Below are positions 58,521 through 64,000 of a stretch of 64,000 bases of DNA, in pieces. The translations under genes were made by a program, and so were the position numbers. The notes under the pieces were generated by a model, which worked only from the letters and a program-made list of their open reading frames with translations, ran no database searches and had not been told where the DNA came from. Source of the DNA: Chloroflexota bacterium (GTDB taxonomy: Bacteria; Chloroflexota; UBA6077; FW602-bin22; DAOUAE01); the NCBI GenBank assembly GCA_034433795.1, contig DAOUAE010000002.1, positions 26,371-90,370 on the forward strand. Direction: 5' to 3'. Positions within the stretch are counted from its first letter, which is position 1. Every line of letters starts with the position of its first letter.

Positions 58521-59312
58521 CTAGCGCCGGCGGGTCCGCCGCAGCAGCTCGAGGAGTACCCCCGCCGCCGTCTCGGCGAACGCCGTATCGTTGATGTTGT
58601 GGTCCAGCTCGTAGACCGGGATGTCGGGGCGAAGATGGCCCCGCAGGGCGCTGTACAGCGCCGCGTCGGCCTCCGGCCACCAGAAGACCCCCTCGGGCTG
58701 GTCGAGGGCCGAAAGACCACGGTGCGGCCAGAGAACAGCCACCGGCGCCCGGGCGGCGTTGAGCGCGCCGGCCAGCCGCCGACCCAGCTCCTGGCTCTCC
58801 TCGACCGTCGTGCGGACGAAGAGGACGCCCATCTCCGGCTGGTAGAGCGGCCGCCGCCGGTAGTGGTCCGGGAGATCGGCGTGGACCTCGACCCGCCGGT
58901 AGTCCAGCCCGCCGGGGACCACGACCTGTGGAACGGCCCACGGACCCGGCCAGTCGCCGATGAGCGACCGACCCGCCAGCAGCTCGGTCACCGCCAGCCG
59001 GAGCAGGCCGTGACAGGCCTCACCGCCGGCCAGATCGGCCGGCGCCCGGTCAGCCGCCTCTCGCAGCCACCGGACGGTGACAGCACACCCCCCTGCCTCC
59101 AGCACCTGCCGCGCCCTTTCGGCCGCCCCGGCGGTCTGGCTGACCGTGACCAGGATCACCCGTGGGCCCCCCACGGCCTCCGAGCCCGGCCCCGCCGGCC
59201 GGCCCAACAGCGAGACCGCCCACGTCAGCCAGCCCGACCGTCGCCGCGTCGCCGACCCGACCGGAGCCGACCGGGACGCCGCCAGTTCAGCCGGCCGCTC
59301 TCTACGCCCCAC
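58521..59312 (-). CDS. Tm-1-like / UPF0261 protein, C-terminal domain only (start uncertain)
   Basis: PQVVVPGGLD, RTTVEE, LNAARAPV, GLSALD, EADAALY and HNINDTAFA match the UPF0261 C-terminus. No N-terminal domain is visible. Confidence 0.7.
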   Translation of the reverse strand: MGRRERPAELAASRSAPVGSATRRRSGWLTWAVSLLGRPAGPGSEAVGGPRVILVTVSQTAGAAERARQVLEAGGCAVTVRWLREAADRAPADLAGGEACHGLLRLAVTELLAGRSLIGDWPGPWAVPQVVVPGGLDYRRVEVHADLPDHYRRRPLYQPEMGVLFVRTTVEESQELGRRLAGALNAARAPVAVLWPHRGLSALDQPEGVFWWPEADAALYSALRGHLRPDIPVYELDHNINDTAFAETAAGVLLELLRRTRRR

Positions 59313-59524
59313 CGATTCTCTCCATCGGCCTCCAGAGTGCCGACCACCGGTGGTCGGCCCTCCCCGCCACCGGGGTCCGCACCGCAAATATGGCCGATCC
59401 CGGCGTCCGGCGTCAAGAGGTGACGCCAGACAGGCAAACGCGCCCCTTGCACCGCGCACGATCTTGTGGTAATCTGCAGGCCAGCCGATGAGGGGTGTGG
59501 TCTCTCGCATGGAGGGACGTGCCG

Positions 59525-59950
59525 ATGGAGGCGGCCGCCGGGCCACCGGTCACCGTCGAGATTCTGGCCTACGCGCCCACCGCGTTCTTCCACTGCCAGC
59601 ACTGCGAACTGGTCTGGCAGGGGATCGGTCTGGGCCCGGCGGCTCACCAGGCGATCCGGACCGGCTCGCTGCCGGATGACCGGCTGGCCGAGTGGTGCGC
59701 CCTGGTCGACCTCGTCGGTCGGCTGCGGCAGCGCTTCGGCGACCGGATCGCGGTCCGGGTGGTGGACGCCGCCTCGGTCGAGGGGTTCTGGCAGGCGCTG
59801 CGCTGGCGGATTCGGCGTCTGCCGGCCGCGGTCATCGGCCGGCGGGAGGTCGCCACCGCCGACCCCGACGCCTTCGCGCCGGCGCTTCAGGCGGCGCTGG
59901 AGCGCTGGCTGAGCCCGCCGGGCCCTGCGGCCACCCGGGGATGGAGGTGA
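59525..59950 (+). CDS. Small CxxC protein, probable thioredoxin-like fold
   Basis: FFHCQHCE near the N-terminus, later VRVVDAASVEG and RLPA. GGAGG RBS. Confidence 0.7.
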   Translation: MEAAAGPPVTVEILAYAPTAFFHCQHCELVWQGIGLGPAAHQAIRTGSLPDDRLAEWCALVDLVGRLRQRFGDRIAVRVVDAASVEGFWQALRWRIRRLPAAVIGRREVATADPDAFAPALQAALERWLSPPGPAATRGWR

Positions 59951-60041
59951 GCGCCGCCCGCGCCGGTCTGGGCCGCCCGCGCTGCGTTTTCCGTGGTCCT
60001 CGCCCGTACGCACGCTGGGAGTCCGTGAAAGGAGGGGAGCA

Positions 60042-61849
60042 GTGACAACTCTGTTGGCCATTCTCCTGGGGGCGGCCACGGTCTACATCGGCTACAACTT
60101 CTACGCCCGTCGGATCGACCGCGACGTGATCCAGCCCGACCCCAACCGGGCGACCCCCGCCCGCCTGTACATGGATGGGGTGGATTTTGTCCCCACCAGC
60201 CGGAACGTTCTCTACGGGTATCATTTCAAATCCATCGCCGCCGCCGGCCCCATCGTCGGCGCGATCACCGCGGCCGGGCTCTGGGGCTGGCTGCCCTCGT
60301 TGCTCTGGCTGATGGGGGGCGTGATGTTCATCGGCTGGGCCAGCGTTACAGCGCCATCATGGTCTCGGTGCGCAACGACGGCCACAGCCTGAGCGCCATC
60401 GCCCACCAGCTGATCGCCCCGCGGACGCGGCGGATCCTCCTCATCTTCGTGTTCTTCTATCTCCTGCTGGTCGCCGGCGCCTTCGCCAACCTGGTGGCCG
60501 GCGTTCTGCAGACCCCCTCGGTCCCCCTGGGGATCATCGCCCTGGCGGTGATGGGGGTCCTGGCCGGTCAGATGCTCTACCGCTGGCGCCTGGACCTGGT
60601 GGCCACCACCCTCATCACCGTCGGCGTCACCCTGGTCGCCGTCCTCCTCGGCGGCATCGAGGGCGGACCGGTCCAGGCCCTCTTCCAGAGCCTGAACGGC
60701 GCCTTCGACAGCCTGACCGGCGGCCAGGGCTTGGTCTCGGTCTACGACCCGACCCAGCTCAACCCCCAGACCCGTCAGCTGGGCGTGGACGTGCCCATCC
60801 GGCCCAGCTTCGTCTTCTGGCTGCTGATGACCTTCCTCTTCTGCTACTTCGGGGCCGTCCTGCCGATCTGGCGCTACGCCCAGCCCATCAACTACATCGG
60901 CTTCTGGCTCACCGCGCTGACCATCGTCTTCGGGGCGCTGGGGGCGCTTTTGGCGGTGGTCCTGCGACCGGACCTGGCCACCTTCAAACTGGACGCCTTC
61001 AAGGGCTTTATGGCGCCGGTGGCCACCGGCGCGCTCCAGCCGCTCTGGCCGATGCTCTTCGTGACCATCGCCTGCGGGGCCATCTCCGGCTGGCATGCCC
61101 TCATCGGCTCGGTGGGGACGGCGCGCCAGCTGGAGTATGAGACCGACGCCCTGCCGGTGGGCGGCGGAGCGATGTTCAGCGAGTTCACCCTGGGGCTCCT
61201 CTCGCTGATGGCCGTGGCGGTGGCCGGCCAGGGCAGCGGCCCGGCGGCCTTCGCCACCGGCGTGGGGAACTTCCTGAGCGTCTTCGGTCTCCCGCCCAGC
61301 TACGGCCGGGCCATCGCCTTCGCCGCCTTCGTGGTCATCGTGATCACTGTGGTGCAGCTGGTCTTCCGGGTGATGCGGGTCACGCTGGCCGAATCGCTGG
61401 GTGAGCGCTCGCCGCTCTTCCGCAACATCCACTTCGGGACCATCCTCTCCATGGCCCTCACCTTCCTGCTCGTCATCAGCGGCACCTGGATCTACCTCTG
61501 GCAGCTGTTCGGCGGCGCCAACCAGCTGATGGCCTCGCTGGCGCTGCTCATCGTCACCGTCTGGCTGGTGGCCAGCGGCCGGAATCCCCTCTACGCCGGC
61601 ATTCCCATGGTCTTCATGTACATCACTACCATGGCCGCCAACCTGGTCACCGCCTACAACCTGTGGCTGACGGTCTTCAGCCGGAACCTGGGCCAGCCCG
61701 GCCGGGAGATCTCGGTCGTCGGCTCGGGCCTGATGATCGTGGTGGCGCTCCTCTTGGTGGTCGCGGCGCTGCTCATCGGTCTCGACGGCTACCGGGCGAT
61801 CCAGCGCTATCGCGCCCGGCCGATCCAGCGGCCGGCCCCGGCCACCTAG
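60042..61849 (+). pseudogene. cstA: Carbon starvation protein A (CstA/BtsT)-family transporter, 1-nt frameshift near 60345
   Basis: TPARLYMDGVDFVPT, GYHFKSIAAAGPIVG and WGWLP, continuing as DYSAIMVSVRNDGHS and FVTIACGAISGWHAL. One inserted base restores an ORF of about 602 aa. Confidence 0.88.
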
Positions 61850-61929
61850 CGCCGGCGACAGAGGTCCGGTGAGCGCGGAGGGTCCCGCCCCGGGGCGGGA
61901 CCCTCCGCCTCCCGCGGAGGAAGAGAGGT

Positions 61930-62235
61930 GTGAGAGCGACGTCGTCCGCAACCCTGCGTGCGCGTCTGGAGCGGGCCTGGCGGACGCTGGGGGAGATTCT
62001 CTACGGCCTGACCGGCTACGAGTTCGCCCTGCACGCGCTGCACCGGCGGGCGGAGGTGGAGAATCTGCTCCTGGCCCTGCTCTTCGGGGACATGCTGGGG
62101 CTGCCGATCCTGCCGCCCTACTACAGTCTGCGGCTCCTGCCCTACGTCGTCCCCCAGATCGAGGCCTGGAAACGCCGCGTCCTGCGCGAGCGCTCACCGC
62201 TGGAAAGCGAAGAGTTCGATCTTATTGAGATGTAG
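61930..62235 (+). CDS. Small membrane-associated protein of the cstA-arsA module (copy 1)
   Basis: 101 aa with LLFGDMLGLPILPPYYSLRLLPYVVPQI. Paralogue of the next gene. Confidence 0.85.
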   Translation: MRATSSATLRARLERAWRTLGEILYGLTGYEFALHALHRRAEVENLLLALLFGDMLGLPILPPYYSLRLLPYVVPQIEAWKRRVLRERSPLESEEFDLIEM

Positions 62236-62466
62236 GGGGAAAGATGACCGGAGGCACACGGCTCGGCGGCCTGCGCGGCCTCCTGACCACCATCAAAGAG
62301 GTCATGTACGGCATGGCCTCGCACGATATGACCCGCTACGCCCTGCGTACCCGGGCGAGCATGGAGCACCTCTTTATCCTGATCACCATGGGCGATCTCC
62401 TCGGCGTCCCCATCCTGCCACCCTACTACAGTCTGCGCCTCCTGCCCTACGTCGTCCCCCAGATCG
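62107..62466 (+). repeat. 55-nt direct repeat (62107-62161 and 62412-62466), 53/55 identical
   Basis: ATCCTGCC[G/A]CCCTACTACAGTCTGCG[G/C]CTCCTGCCCTACGTCGTCCCCCAGATCG occurs in both small genes. Confidence 0.9.
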
Positions 62467-62522
62467 CCACCTGGAAGCGGCGCATGCTGCGCGAAAAAGA
62501 CCTGACCGACGCCATGGCCTGA
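62244..62522 (+). CDS. Small membrane-associated protein of the cstA-arsA module (copy 2)
   Basis: 92 aa with ITMGDLLGVPILPPYYSLRLLPYVVPQI. Confidence 0.85.
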   Translation: MTGGTRLGGLRGLLTTIKEVMYGMASHDMTRYALRTRASMEHLFILITMGDLLGVPILPPYYSLRLLPYVVPQIATWKRRMLREKDLTDAMA

Positions 62523-62536
62523 GCCGGGAGCAGACC

Positions 62537-63508
62537 ATGACCTCTCTCGCCCAGATCGTCACCCAGCACGCCTACATTATGTTCGGCGGCAAAGGCGGCC
62601 TCGGTAAGACCACCTTCTCGGCCGCCACCGCCTTCTGGCTGGCCGAGCGCGGCCACAAGGTGCTGGTCTTCTCGGTGGACCCCCAGGCCAGCCTCTCGGA
62701 CATCTTCCAGCGCGACCTCTTTGGCCGGGGCCCGGTCCAGATTATGGAGAACCTCTGGGCCCAGGAGATCGACGCCGACCGCCGCGTCCGCGAGTACCAG
62801 GAGGAGATCCGGCAGAAAATCCTCCGGCTGTACGGCTTCGAGCGCCTGCCCGACGAGATCGAGCAGTACATCCAGGCCGCGGCGGCCGAGCCGGCGATGG
62901 AGGAGAGCGCCATCTTCGACGCCGTCGTCGACATCGTCGTCCAGGGCAGCTACGACTACTATATCTACGACCTGGTGCCGCTCGGCCACGCCCTCTACTA
63001 CCTCAGCATGGCCAAGGTCTACGACGAATGGATCAACAAGATCACCAAACTCCGCCAGGAGATGCGCGAGTACGAGCAGGTGGCCATGGTTATGCGCCGC
63101 CAGAAAACCCTGGAGGAGGACCAGATCCTCAACGAACTGGAATACATCAAAAACCGGATCAACACCTCCTCACGCATCCTGACCGACCGCGAGAAAACGG
63201 CCTTCTTCTTCGTCCTGGTTCCGGAGGAGATGGTGATCCTGGATACGCTGAAGGCCGCCACCCTCTTCGCCCGCTTCGACGTCCCGATCGCCGGCTACGT
63301 CGTCAACCGCATCATCCCCCCCGCCCTCCAGACCCAGGCGGTGCCGGAGTACCTGCGCCACCGTATCGCGATGCAGCAGAAGTACCTGGCCGAGATCCAG
63401 CAGACGTTCGGCCAGCAGGTCCTGGCCGCCGTTCCCGAGCTCGAACGCGACGTGACCGGGCTCCCGATGATCGAGCGGGTCGCCCGCATCCTGTACGGGG
63501 AGCAGTGA
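62537..63508 (+). CDS. ArsA/Get3-family ATPase (single domain), copy 1
   Basis: GGKGGLGKT P-loop, SVDP (switch I), EPAMEE, DLVPLGH (degenerate DTAPTGH) and VVNR. Contains no Cys. Confidence 0.9.
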   Translation: MTSLAQIVTQHAYIMFGGKGGLGKTTFSAATAFWLAERGHKVLVFSVDPQASLSDIFQRDLFGRGPVQIMENLWAQEIDADRRVREYQEEIRQKILRLYGFERLPDEIEQYIQAAAAEPAMEESAIFDAVVDIVVQGSYDYYIYDLVPLGHALYYLSMAKVYDEWINKITKLRQEMREYEQVAMVMRRQKTLEEDQILNELEYIKNRINTSSRILTDREKTAFFFVLVPEEMVILDTLKAATLFARFDVPIAGYVVNRIIPPALQTQAVPEYLRHRIAMQQKYLAEIQQTFGQQVLAAVPELERDVTGLPMIERVARILYGEQ

Positions 63509-63510
63509 CC

Positions 63511-64000
63511 ATGGAGCCGCGCCTCACCCTCAGCATGGCCGACTACCTGCGCCAGCATCCCGCCCTCCAGTACATCTTCTTCGGCGGCAAGGGCGGCGTC
63601 GGCAAGACCGTCATGGCCGGCGCCACCGCCCTCTGGCACGCCCGCCAGGGACGCCGCACCATCCTGGCCTCGACCAACCCGGTCCACAGTCTCTCCAGCC
63701 TGCTGGACCAGGACGTCTTCGGCCGGCATACCCCGGTCCAGGGCGTGCCCAACCTCTGGGCCTACGAGATCGACACCCGCGAGACCATCGAACGCTCGAA
63801 GAACGAGATCAAGGAGAAGATCAACTGGTTCCTGCGTTTCGCCGACATCACCACCAAGGCCGATGAGTTCGTCGAGTCGGCGACGATGAACCCGGCCTTC
63901 GAAGAGTCGGCCATGTTCGAGAACATGGTCGATCTGATGCTCAAGAACGAGTACGAGGTCTACGTTTTCGACACCGCCCCGACAGCCAACGCCCGCCGGC
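63511..64000 (+). CDS. ArsA/Get3-family ATPase, copy 2 (truncated by the window end; not in the ORF track)
   Basis: Manual translation gives GGKGGVGKT, STNPVHSLS, NPAFEE and FDTAPTANARR. Confidence 0.9.
   Translation, partial: MEPRLTLSMADYLRQHPALQYIFFGGKGGVGKTVMAGATALWHARQGRRTILASTNPVHSLSSLLDQDVFGRHTPVQGVPNLWAYEIDTRETIERSKNEIKEKINWFLRFADITTKADEFVESATMNPAFEESAMFENMVDLMLKNEYEVYVFDTAPTANARR

What the first reader, a model, noticed from the sequence alone, without database searches (positions are those of the whole stretch)
59525..64000. Six-gene module: CxxC protein, CstA transporter, two paralogous microproteins and two ArsA/Get3 ATPases
Seen: one strand, short gaps, and no arsB, arsD or arsR. 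Established: CstA/BtsT are peptide or pyruvate carriers often followed by a small protein and a P-loop NTPase (E. coli btsT-yjiX-yjiA). From memory, cstA-arsA linkage has been noted in comparative surveys but not characterised mechanistically. Inferred: a 2+2 complex in which each microprotein partners one ATPase to energise, gate or insert the carrier, possibly under redox control by the CxxC protein.
Basis: partly seen in the sequence, partly recalled or inferred. Interest (0 to 1): 0.75.

Follow-up and report, generated by a model that had tools for sequence, protein, structure and literature searches.

The report
CstA carrier operon with paired Get3-like ATPases
This is one more copy of a widespread but never tested bacterial operon that joins a CstA-type nutrient carrier to two small helical proteins and two Get3/ArsA-like ATPases (one able to hydrolyse ATP, one apparently not); the gene linkage was published in 2010, and in this window the carrier gene carries a one-base frameshift.

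Summary
Two caveats apply. cstA is split by a 1-nt deletion after 60345, while a 99.4%-identical metagenome contig has it intact. The second ATPase runs off the window end.

The microproteins are Pfam DUF7990, which matches the ~90-aa "CstX" of Castillo & Saier 2010 in size and position. That paper already described cstA-cstX-arsA operons, including ArsA pairs.

In 80 genome loci from several phyla, X1-X2-ArsA1-ArsA2 is present in 67 of 68 informative cases. CstA lies upstream in 58 of 65, and the CxxC gene in 42 of 58.

- ArsA1 always keeps the catalytic Asp (SVDPQASL). ArsA2 always has Asn there (STNPVHSL, like Get3 D57N).
- Both window ATPases are cysteine-free, so they have no ArsA metalloid site and no Get3 zinc motif.
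- The CxxC protein is a thioredoxin-fold protein with an invariant HCxHCE. In some lineages it is fused to X1.
- A seventh gene (about 225 aa, one TM helix) occurs in most relatives but not here.

My best reading is an ArsAB-like complex: an asymmetric ATPase heterodimer docked through X1/X2 onto CstA. This is inferred, not shown. It is a new member of a known but uncharacterised kind.

The parts
59525..59950 (+). Thioredoxin-fold protein (141 aa) with an invariant A-P-T..H-C-x-H-C-E motif. It is an accessory member of the module.
   Evidence: There are 54 homologues, and C24, C27 and E28 are invariant. The AF2 model has pLDDT 83.7 with a beta-alpha-beta-alpha-beta-beta-alpha order, and the CxxC sits at the N-terminus of helix 1. 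The listed top 50 Foldseek PDB hits are almost all thioredoxins, PDI or glutaredoxin-like proteins, though weakly (E 2e-3 to 5e-2). The gene lies directly upstream of cstA in 42 of 58 loci. It is fused to X1 in P0230, P0233 and P0203. Compared with L001 it has an in-frame 3-nt deletion at 59848.
60042..60392 (+). cstA 5' part (ORF of 116 aa). It reads CstA residues 1-101, then goes out of frame.
   Evidence: It matches Pfam CstA positions 4-97 at E 2e-34. An AGGAGG lies 6-8 nt before the GTG at 60042.
60345..60346 (+). Frameshift site. One A is missing relative to a 99.4%-identical contig (GCCAGCG-TTAC versus GCCAGCGATTAC).
   Evidence: locate the deletion. Elsewhere in the gene there are 8 synonymous and 1 non-synonymous differences. 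So this is either a sequencing error or a very recent lesion.
60347..61849 (+). cstA 3' part. The ORF from the ATG at 60359 is 496 aa. With the missing base restored the protein is 602 aa.
   Evidence: The 496-aa ORF matches Pfam CstA at E 1.4e-61. The intact L001 CstA scores 348 bits. It is about 38% identical to E. coli CstA in the conserved blocks. A hydropathy scan of the restored protein gives multiple overlapping hydrophobic stretches along its length.
61930..62235 (+). X1, a DUF7990 ('CstX') small protein of 101 aa. This is the variable paralogue.
   Evidence: Pfam PF25952/DUF7990 is recorded on its homologues. It hits NCBIfam cory-CC-star at 40 bits, E 2.6e-10, below the cut-off. The motif GD-x2-G-x-P-x2-PPYY-x-LR-x2-P-x3-P-x4-WKRR-x2-RE is invariant. 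The 19-residue hydropathy maximum is 1.72 at residues 43-61.
62244..62522 (+). X2, a DUF7990 small protein of 92 aa. This paralogue is almost invariant.
   Evidence: Searches place it in the family. Its core is nearly identical in distant low-GC loci.
62537..63508 (+). ArsA1, a single-domain Get3/ArsA-type ATPase of 323 aa. It keeps the catalytic Asp and has no cysteine.
   Evidence: It scores 241 bits on TIGR00345. Its best PDB match is M. jannaschii Get3 3ug6 at 4e-63. Its motifs are GKGGLGKT, SVDPQASL and YDLVPLGH. SVDPQASL is present in 69 of 69 orthologues and GKGGLGKT in 65 of 69.
63511..64000 (+). ArsA2, the 5' 163 codons of a 334-aa Get3/ArsA-type ATPase. Its switch I carries Asn in place of the catalytic Asp, and it has no cysteine. 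It is cut by the window end.
   Evidence: establish the gene. STNPVHSL is present in 71 of 71 orthologues. The Asn aligns with the Asp of STDPAHSL in archaeal Get3. The switch II sequence FDTAPTANARRL is seen.

Best explanation
The locus encodes a multi-subunit transporter of the cstA-cstX-arsA type.

Shown:
- A CstA-family carrier is encoded with two paralogous DUF7990 proteins, X1 and X2.
- Two paralogous single-domain Get3/ArsA ATPases follow. Their active-site motifs are complementary and strictly conserved.
- A thioredoxin-fold HCxHC protein is part of the unit.

Inferred:
- ArsA1 and ArsA2 form an obligate heterodimer with one hydrolytic ATP site (ArsA1, Asp) and one ATP-holding, non-hydrolytic site (ArsA2, Asn, as in Get3 D57N).
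- X1 and X2 are membrane-proximal adaptors. Each has a marginally hydrophobic helix, a Pro-rich turn and a basic WKRRxLRE helix. They tether the ATPase pair to CstA.
- ATP binding and hydrolysis are then coupled to substrate movement through CstA, much as ArsA turns the secondary carrier ArsB into an ATP-driven pump. The probable substrate is a small carboxylate such as pyruvate, or peptides.
- The thioredoxin-like protein binds X1 and adds a thiol- or metal-dependent input in the lineages that have it.

In this particular window the carrier gene is frameshifted. The system is therefore either mis-sequenced at one base or recently inactivated.
For: - Conserved order and tight spacing across phyla: X-X-ArsA1-ArsA2 in 67 of 68 loci, CstA adjacent in 58 of 65, and the same in distant loci.
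- Strict subfamily motifs. ArsA1 has SVDPQASL and DLVPLGH. ArsA2 has STNPVHSL and DTAPTAN.
- The Asn sits at the position of the catalytic Asp. Get3 D57N binds ATP but cannot hydrolyse it (PMC12506534).
- Rosetta-stone fusions exist. Trx-like::X1 occurs on 4 contigs in the context CstA-fusion-X2-ArsA-ArsA. X::X fusions are P0002 and P0004. A CstA C-terminus::X fusion is P0244.
- X2 is almost invariant over large distances, as expected for a protein with several binding partners.
- There is a precedent for a small partner being needed by a CstA carrier: E. coli YbdD (PMC5847655).
- The ArsAB precedent and the original proposal are in PMC2963123.
Against: - No interaction, transport or ATPase datum exists for any member.
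- E. coli BtsT is annotated as a pyruvate:H+ symporter, and E. coli CstA/BtsT import pyruvate with no ArsA-type ATPase in their operons. From my own knowledge they work as proton symporters.
- Seven of 65 loci have the X-X-ArsA-ArsA core with no cstA within about 7 kb. The core may therefore serve another client.
- The closest solved relatives are archaeal Get3 proteins (4e-63), not ArsA (3e-33).
- Whether X is in the membrane is undecided. Hydropathy is borderline, and the AF2 model of the X::X fusion has pTM 0.33.
- The P0244 fusion is a single fragment whose contig could not be retrieved.
Confidence: 0.38

Rival explanations
1. A dedicated GET-like biogenesis system. The ArsA1/ArsA2 heterodimer shields the hydrophobic segment of X1/X2 (or segments of CstA) in its groove and delivers it to the membrane. 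The ATPases are then assembly factors and not part of the working transporter.
For: The best structural relatives are archaeal Get3 proteins (3ug6 and 3zq6, E 4e-63 to 4e-56). X has one marginally hydrophobic segment, with a 19-residue hydropathy maximum of 1.6-1.7, in the C-terminal half of a ~100-aa protein. The X-X-ArsA-ArsA core sometimes stands without cstA.
Against: Both ATPases lack the Get3 CxxC zinc hinge. One subunit is naturally hydrolysis-dead. The stretch aligned to the Met-rich insert of MjGet3 is shorter and charged. X carries a 25-40-residue highly charged, strongly conserved tail after the hydrophobic segment, which is unlike a tail anchor. X occurs fused behind a soluble Trx-like domain and, in one fragment, behind CstA itself, which is hard to reconcile with post-translational delivery. 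A near-invariant X2 suggests a stable interface rather than a client.
Confidence: 0.2
2. A nucleotide- or redox-dependent switch rather than an energiser. CstA stays a proton symporter, and the ATPase pair, bound through X1/X2, opens or closes it according to ATP/ADP level and the thiol or metal state of the Trx-like protein.
For: One permanently ATP-bound degenerate site plus one hydrolytic site is the typical layout of a timer or switch. The family name comes from carbon starvation (PMC2963123). A thiol module recurs next to CstA carriers: the HCxHC protein here, and the invariant C-terminal CC of YbdD/YjiX. Relatives transport without any ArsA-type ATPase.
Against: There is no direct evidence. 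The Trx-like gene is missing in 16 of 58 loci. Asymmetric sites are also normal in true pumps; from my own knowledge this holds for ArsA A1/A2 and for ABC transporters with a degenerate site.
Confidence: 0.2
3. An arsenite or antimonite resistance pump (classical ArsA function) using CstA instead of ArsB.
For: Only the family name and Pfam PF02374 'anion-transporting ATPase' support this.
Against: There are no cysteines at all in either window ATPase, and 0 Cys in 64 of 69 and 56 of 71 orthologues, so no metalloid thiolate site. The position of ArsA C113 aligns to the cysteine-free stretch AEPAMEE. The ATPases are single-domain proteins. No arsR, arsB, arsD or acr3 lies nearby. The NCBIfam ArsA equivalogs score far below cut-off (97 versus 650 bits).
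Confidence: 0.02
4. Fortuitous neighbours. The genes are adjacent here but functionally unrelated.
For: None beyond the lack of experiments.
Against: The same order is found in Chloroflexota, Actinomycetota, Acidobacteriota, Proteobacteria, Rokubacteria, Planctomycetes and Eisenbacteria. Domain fusions also link the parts.
Confidence: 0.02

Closest known systems
cstA-cstX-arsA operons of Castillo & Saier 2010 (Int J Microbiol 2010:187373; PMC2963123)
   Same: It has a CstA carrier, a ~90-aa small protein with one predicted TMS ('CstX'), single-domain ~330-aa ArsA homologues and no ars regulators or carriers. The paper already reports adjacent ArsA pairs (Pyrobaculum arsenaticum, Symbiobacterium thermophilum) and two CstX paralogues (P. 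arsenaticum, Thermococcus kodakarensis), and proposes that CstX links ArsA to CstA.
   Different: That paper rests on 26 SEED instances and tree congruence. In the passages I read I did not find the Asp/Asn asymmetry of the ATPase pair, their lack of cysteine, the thioredoxin-like HCxHC gene and its fusions, or the near-universality of the 2+2 layout in DUF7990 loci. Its ~210-aa single-TMS 'CstY' of archaea may or may not be the ~225-aa gene Z seen here in relatives; I did not test this.
ArsAB arsenite pump (E. coli R773 ArsA, PDB 1f48)
   Same: It belongs to the same ATPase family (E 3e-33). It is a pseudo-dimer with two non-equivalent nucleotide sites bound to a carrier that can also work as a secondary transporter. 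This is the mechanistic template for the main model.
   Different: The ATPases here are two separate single-domain genes. There is no metalloid Cys triad, the DTAPTGH motif is intact in neither subunit, and there is no ArsB, Acr3, ArsD or ArsR. The carrier belongs to an unrelated family.
Get3/TRC40 tail-anchor targeting ATPase (archaeal Get3 3ug6, 3zq6; yeast Get3)
   Same: These are the closest solved sequences (4e-63 and 2e-57). They share the deviant Walker A GKGGxGKT, switch I and switch II.
   Different: The ATPases here are a heterodimer of paralogues rather than a homodimer. There is no CxxC zinc motif. One subunit naturally carries the D57N-type change. The stretch aligned to the Met-rich insert of MjGet3 is shorter and charged. 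No Get1/2-like receptor is recognisable, and the genes sit in a transporter operon.
E. coli CstA-YbdD and BtsT-YjiX-YjiA
   Same: A CstA-family carrier is followed by a small protein and, for btsT, a P-loop NTPase. YbdD is required for CstA-dependent pyruvate uptake (PMC5847655).
   Different: YbdD and YjiX are DUF466 proteins that end in an invariant Cys-Cys. They show no detectable similarity to DUF7990 (hhalign probability 0.6%). YjiA is annotated as a P-loop GTPase rather than an ArsA/Get3 ATPase. The E. coli carriers are about 100 residues longer (701 and 716 aa versus 554-602 aa).
Mycobacterium tuberculosis BagA/BagB (Rv3679/Rv3680; PDB 6bs3)
   Same: Both are pairs of Get3-like ATPase paralogues. 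The two Bag proteins are chains A and B of one PDB entry. From my own knowledge they are adjacent genes that form a heterodimer.
   Different: The relationship is only distant (E 3e-8 and 7e-7). NCBIfam BagA and BagB scores are far below cut-off (53 versus 400 bits and 39 versus 521 bits). From my own knowledge the bagAB locus has no CstA or DUF7990 partner.
NCBIfam NF041419 'cory-CC-star protein'
   Same: It is the only curated model that the microproteins hit (E 2.6e-10 and 7.9e-9, covering profile positions 17-76 of 80).
   Different: The scores of 35-40 bits are below the 80-bit cut-off. The window proteins contain no cysteine, so they have no terminal CC of the kind the family name implies. 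I could not inspect members of that family.

Membership tests
cstA-cstX-arsA operon (Castillo & Saier 2010) | CstA-family carrier gene in the cluster | tested here: met
   Both ORF halves match PF02554. The intact orthologue scores 348 bits. In this window the gene is frameshifted.
cstA-cstX-arsA operon (Castillo & Saier 2010) | Adjacent ~90-aa protein with a single predicted hydrophobic segment (CstX) | tested here: met
   There are two such genes, of 101 and 92 aa, in Pfam DUF7990. Their 19-residue hydropathy maxima are 1.72 and 1.59. Identity with the paper's CstX sequences was not checked directly.
cstA-cstX-arsA operon (Castillo & Saier 2010) | Single-domain ArsA homologue(s) of ~300-340 aa | tested here: met
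   They are 323 aa and 334 aa (the latter full length in L001).
cstA-cstX-arsA operon (Castillo & Saier 2010) | No arsR, arsB, acr3, arsP or arsD in the cluster | tested here: met
   The gene lists of the window flank and of L001 8 kb downstream contain none.
ArsA arsenite-stimulated ATPase | Metalloid-binding cysteines (C113, C172, C422 of R773 ArsA) | tested here: not met
   Both proteins have no Cys at all. Orthologues have 0 Cys in 64 of 69 and 56 of 71 cases. The C113 position aligns to AEPAMEE.
ArsA arsenite-stimulated ATPase | Fused A1-A2 two-domain polypeptide (~580 aa) with DTAPTGH in both halves | tested here: not met
   These are separate genes. The motifs are DLVPLGH in ArsA1 and DTAPTAN in ArsA2. 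The NCBIfam ArsA equivalog scores 97 bits against a cut-off of 650.
Get3/TRC40 targeting factor | Deviant Walker A plus a catalytic Asp in switch I (yeast D57) in every subunit | tested here: not met
   ArsA1 keeps the Asp. ArsA2 has Asn in 71 of 71 orthologues.
Get3/TRC40 targeting factor | CxxC pair coordinating zinc at the homodimer interface | tested here: not met
   The aligned segment has no Cys: PPALQTQAVPEYLRHR versus QC..DFCRAR in MjGet3.
Get3/TRC40 targeting factor | Hydrophobic client groove with a Met-rich insert; binding of tail-anchored clients | tested here: inconclusive
   The stretch aligned to that part of MjGet3 is 4 residues shorter and charged (EYEQVAMVMRRQK versus GFMKMMKKLLPFGG). 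Calling this the TRC40 insert rests on my own knowledge. Client binding is not testable here.
Get3/TRC40/ArsA superfamily (TIGR00345) | Score above the curated cut-off for the subfamily model | tested here: met
   ArsA1 scores 241 bits against a cut-off of 135. The 155-aa ArsA2 fragment scores 123 bits.
YbdD/YjiX (DUF466) CstA partners | Sequence similarity to PF04328 and a C-terminal Cys-Cys | tested here: not met
   There is no Pfam hit even at E <= 10. hhalign gives probabilities of 0.6-1.2%. DUF466 has invariant C64 and C65, while X1 and X2 have no Cys.
Thioredoxin-fold proteins (for the CxxC gene) | beta-alpha-beta-alpha-beta-beta-alpha fold with CxxC at the N-terminus of helix 1 and a conserved Pro before strand 3 | tested here: met
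   The AF2 model has pLDDT 83.7 with elements E9-15, H25-33, E75-81, H85-93, E101-104, E108-111 and H114-129. C24 and C27 are invariant and P100 is nearly invariant. The listed Foldseek hits are nearly all thioredoxin-fold proteins, but weakly (best E 2e-3). Redox or metal activity was not tested.
BagA/BagB (M. tuberculosis) | Score above the NCBIfam equivalog cut-offs | tested here: not met
   The scores are 53 against 400 bits and 39 against 521 bits.

The most novel reading that the evidence does not exclude
The X1/X2-ArsA1/ArsA2 module may be a portable ATP-coupling device that converts a CstA-fold secondary carrier into an ATP-dependent transporter. That would be a second, independent case of the ArsA-ArsB principle, and a physiological role for prokaryotic Get3-like ATPases outside tail-anchor targeting. 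The thiol element that E. coli carries as the CC tail of YbdD/YjiX would here be supplied by a separate or X1-fused thioredoxin-fold HCxHC domain.
Probability: 0.3. Interest if true: 0.8.

Novelty: new member of a known kind. Interest (0 to 1): 0.5.

Why it matters
What bacterial and archaeal Get3/ArsA homologues do outside arsenic resistance is still open, and so is how CstA carriers use their small partner proteins. This operon family is large: 445 DUF7990 clusters at 50% identity, with loci in many phyla. Its composition is fixed, and nature has already built the classic hydrolysis-dead mutation into one subunit. That makes it a clean system for asking whether a Get3-type ATPase can drive or gate a secondary carrier. 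For this window, the practical point is that it holds a typical member of that family.

Tried and rejected
- **Homology of the microproteins to E. coli YbdD/YjiX (DUF466).** I ran profile-sequence and profile-profile hhalign with a diversified DUF7990 alignment (A5) and a DUF466 alignment (A4). Only the M-I-G-x-P stretch aligned, at probability 0.6-1.2%. Rejected as unsupported.
- **Solved structures.** There are none for DUF7990 (E <= 10) or for CstA.
- **Modelling an X1:X2 pair from the natural fusion P0004.** The model had pLDDT 73 but pTM 0.33, so only the secondary structure is usable. I ran no fold search on it.
- **Retrieving the contig of the CstA::DUF7990 fusion P0244.** It is not on record, so that fusion stays unverified.
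- **Family assignment of the extra gene Z.** There was no Pfam or NCBIfam hit.
- **Cis-regulatory RNA, promoter and terminator scans of 58.5-64 kb.** Nothing credible turned up.
- **A second cstA copy or other paralogues elsewhere in the window.** None found.
- **Arsenic-resistance reading.** Rejected on the missing cysteines and missing ars genes.
- **Later literature.** Searches for later work on cstA-arsA or CstX found only the 2010 paper.

Full report
**1. What is in the window**

The region has about 70% G+C. The + strand of 59.5-64.0 kb carries the following genes.

| Gene | Coordinates | Size | Family evidence |
|---|---|---|---|
| CxxC protein | 59525-59950 | 141 aa | none in Pfam or NCBIfam |
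| cstA | 60042-61849 | 602 aa if repaired | Pfam PF02554 |
| X1 | 61930-62235 | 101 aa | DUF7990 |
| X2 | 62244-62522 | 92 aa | DUF7990 |
| ArsA1 | 62537-63508 | 323 aa | PF02374 at 250 bits; TIGR00345 at 241 bits |
| ArsA2 | 63511-64000 | 163 codons in window | PF02374 |

- The gaps between genes are 91, 80, 8, 14 and 2 nt. An AGGAGG precedes the cstA start.
- The divergent upstream gene (58521-59546, - strand) matches only the C-terminal domain of UPF0261.

One omission matters: cstA is in two frames, as ORFs 60042-60392 and 60359-61849.

**2. The frameshift**

Contig L001 (JGI metagenome 3300045859) is 99.4% identical to the window over 4.6 kb and has an intact 598-aa CstA.

- The window lacks a single A after 60345 (GCCAGCG-TTAC versus GCCAGCGATTAC). 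The site is not a homopolymer.
- The other nine differences in the gene are 8 synonymous and 1 non-synonymous. The gene has been under purifying selection until very recently, or the deletion is a sequencing error.
- Several long-read MAG loci in the survey show comparable split ORFs, so an error is plausible.
- L001 shows that ArsA2 is 334 aa and that the module ends there. The next gene is a convergent PASTA Ser/Thr kinase.
- No ars genes lie within 8 kb, and no second copy of any of these genes is in the window.

**3. Identity of the microproteins**

Homologues carry Pfam PF25952, which is DUF7990. That model is not in the local Pfam copy, which explains the empty scans.

- The family is large: 4459 clusters at 90% identity pass E <= 1e-3, and 445 clusters at 50% identity. 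Almost all members are 80-140 aa.
- The core is strongly conserved: Y-G-M..., then G-D-x2-G-x-P-x2-P-P-Y-Y-x-L-R-x2-P-x3-P-x4-W-K-R-R-x2-R-E.
- X2 is almost invariant even between Chloroflexota and low-GC organisms. X1 varies.
- The only curated model hit is NCBIfam 'cory-CC-star protein', below cut-off (E 2.6e-10, 40 bits against 80).
- No solved structure is related.
- Hydropathy gives one borderline segment (19-residue maximum 1.6-1.7). This matches the 'single TMS ~90 aa CstX' of Castillo & Saier.
- An AF2 model of a natural X::X fusion gives, for each unit, a long helix, a Pro-rich loop and two short helices. Its pTM of 0.33 means the packing cannot be trusted.

**4. Conservation of the neighbourhood**

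Two matches per locus are possible. I analysed the 80 best loci by ORF calling and phmmer.

| Feature | Count |
|---|---|
| X-X-ArsA1-ArsA2 present, of loci with enough downstream sequence | 67 of 68 |
| CstA upstream, of loci with enough upstream sequence | 58 of 65 |
| CxxC gene immediately upstream of cstA, of those with CstA | 42 of 58 |

- The loci come from Chloroflexota, Actinomycetota, Acidobacteriota, several Proteobacteria, Rokubacteria, Planctomycetes and Eisenbacteria.
- The 16 loci without the CxxC gene are mostly Proteobacteria and Acidobacteriota, and no motif-bearing substitute was found.
- Seven loci have the four-gene core with unrelated large genes upstream.
- Five much more distant DUF7990 loci again show CstA + 2 X + 2 ArsA. 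In one of them cstA is convergent.

The 2+2 layout is therefore ancient and the rule for this family.

**5. A seventh gene in relatives**

In 65 of 80 loci there is a conserved ~225-aa gene with an N-terminal hydrophobic helix.

- It usually lies on the opposite strand between cstA and X1, or after ArsA2.
- It has no Pfam or NCBIfam family.
- It is absent from the window and from L001.
- It may correspond to the ~210-aa single-TMS 'CstY' of the 2010 paper, but I could not test that.
- Seven Anaerolineales loci carry a third DUF7990 gene after ArsA2.

**6. The ATPases**

ArsA1 and ArsA2 are 35-39% identical to each other. Their closest solved relatives are the archaeal Get3 proteins 3ug6 and 3zq6 (E 4e-63 to 4e-56). 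E. coli ArsA is more distant, at about 1e-31 to 3e-33.

Within each orthologue set the catalytic motifs are fixed, and they differ between the sets.

| Motif | ArsA1 | ArsA2 |
|---|---|---|
| Walker A | GKGGLGKT | GKGGVGKT |
| Switch I | SVDPQASL | STNPVHSL |
| Switch II | YDLVPLGHALYY | FDTAPTANARRL |

- The Asn of ArsA2 aligns with the Asp of STDPAHSL in archaeal Get3. From my own knowledge of the yeast sequence (STDPAHN), that Asp corresponds to yeast Get3 D57.
- D57 is the catalytic residue. D57N binds ATP but does not hydrolyse it (PMC12506534).
- I infer an obligate heterodimer with one hydrolytic site and one ATP-holding site.
- Both window proteins contain no cysteine, and most orthologues have none either.
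- They therefore have neither the ArsA metalloid-binding cysteines nor the Get3 CxxC zinc hinge.
- This argues strongly against arsenite stimulation of the classical kind.

**7. The CxxC protein**

- There are 54 homologues with invariant A-P-T...C-x-x-C-E. The two His residues are nearly invariant, giving HCxHCE. The motifs IDAASVEG and RRYPA are also conserved.
- The AF2 model has pLDDT 83.7. It shows a thioredoxin-type beta-alpha-beta-alpha-beta-beta-alpha order with a helical insertion, and the CxxC sits at the N-terminus of helix 1.
- The listed top 50 Foldseek PDB hits are almost all thioredoxins, PDI domains or glutaredoxin-like proteins, though weakly (best E 2e-3).
- A few homologues are annotated DUF1525.
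- Whether it is redox-active or a His/Cys metal site is unknown.

**8. Natural fusions**

Among the 50%-identity representatives I found several fusion proteins.

- P0230, P0233 and P0203 join the Trx-like domain to DUF7990.
- P0230 occurs on four contigs from several samples. Its context is CstA - fusion - X2 - ArsA - ArsA, with no separate CxxC gene. This is good evidence that the Trx-like protein works on X1.
- P0002 and P0004 are X::X fusions.
- P0244 joins the last CstA helices to a DUF7990 unit. It is a fragment whose contig is not on record, so I treat it as weak evidence.

**9. Relation to what is known**

- Castillo & Saier 2010 (PMC2963123) described 26 cstA-arsA associations, 24 of them with cstX. 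They noted the absence of ars genes, ArsA pairs in Pyrobaculum arsenaticum and Symbiobacterium thermophilum, and CstX pairs. They proposed that CstX couples ArsA to CstA.
- I found no later work on this.
- However, DUF7990 and DUF466 are not detectably homologous.
- DUF466 ends in an invariant CC, which X1 and X2 lack.
- YjiA is annotated as a P-loop GTPase, not an ArsA-type ATPase.
- The CstA proteins linked to ArsA are short (554-602 aa) compared with 701 and 716 aa in E. coli, and are about 38% identical in the conserved blocks.

**10. Mechanism**

Shown: the composition, its conservation, the motif asymmetry, the absence of cysteines, the thioredoxin fold and the fusions. Everything else is inferred.

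- **Favoured model (about 0.38).** An ArsAB-like assembly in which X1/X2 tether an asymmetric ArsA1/ArsA2 heterodimer to CstA and ATP turnover at the ArsA1 site is coupled to transport. The thioredoxin-like protein is a lineage-specific input acting through X1.
- **GET-like assembly system for X or CstA (about 0.2).** It is favoured by the closeness to archaeal Get3 and by the cstA-less cores. It is disfavoured by the missing zinc motif, the dead subunit, the charged conserved tail of X and the fusions.
- **Nucleotide/redox gate on a proton symporter (about 0.2).**
- **Arsenic resistance or chance adjacency.** Both are effectively excluded.

**11. Verdict**

It belongs to a kind already described in the comparative literature but never tested experimentally. 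I rate interest as moderate (0.5).

Noticed in passing
window 60345-60346: A single-base deletion splits cstA into two ORFs. The near-identical contig L001 is intact, and the rest of the gene shows 8 synonymous and 1 non-synonymous differences. This is a sequencing error or a very recent pseudogene.
   Followed up: yes
window 59848: An in-frame 3-nt deletion in the thioredoxin-like gene relative to L001 removes one Val in the stretch RREV(V)ATAD.
   Followed up: partly
window 58521-59546 (- strand): The divergent upstream gene matches only the C-terminal domain of UPF0261 (PF23189, residues 137-334 of the long ORF). It is called as 212 aa in L001. The usual N-terminal domain seems to be missing.
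   Followed up: no
L011:7205-7879 (-) and equivalents in 65 of 80 related loci: A conserved ~225-aa gene with an N-terminal hydrophobic helix and no Pfam or NCBIfam family. It usually lies on the opposite strand between cstA and X1, or after ArsA2. It is absent from the window and from L001. It may be the 'CstY' of the 2010 paper.
   Followed up: partly
L012, L031, L069, L070, L071, L073, L079 (just after ArsA2): A third DUF7990 paralogue follows ArsA2 in these loci, which are mostly Anaerolineales and Thermoflexales. There is no third ATPase.
   Followed up: no
L021:6255-9270; L012:8636-9577; L016:8569-9432; L070:1918-2404: Extra DNA lies inside the otherwise tight module: about 3 kb between X1 and X2 in L021, and 0.5-0.9 kb between X2 and ArsA1 in the other three loci. 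I did not examine its content.
   Followed up: no
L024, L033, L036, L048, L054, L057, L059: The X-X-ArsA-ArsA core has no cstA within about 5-8 kb upstream, and unrelated large ORFs sit there instead. Three of these loci are Thermoflexus. Whether cstA lies elsewhere in those genomes is unknown.
   Followed up: partly
L025, L029, L064, L066, L077 (all 'MFD' MAG contigs): CstA or ArsA1 is broken into two to four ORFs in these assemblies. This looks like frameshift noise, probably from long reads, and is a reminder that the window's frameshift may be technical.
   Followed up: no
window 60221-62197 (- strand) and other long antisense ORFs: Very long ORFs on the opposite strand (for example 658 aa) overlap the module. 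They are Arg/Gly/Pro-rich, as expected for spurious ORFs in ~70% GC DNA. They are not genes.
   Followed up: partly
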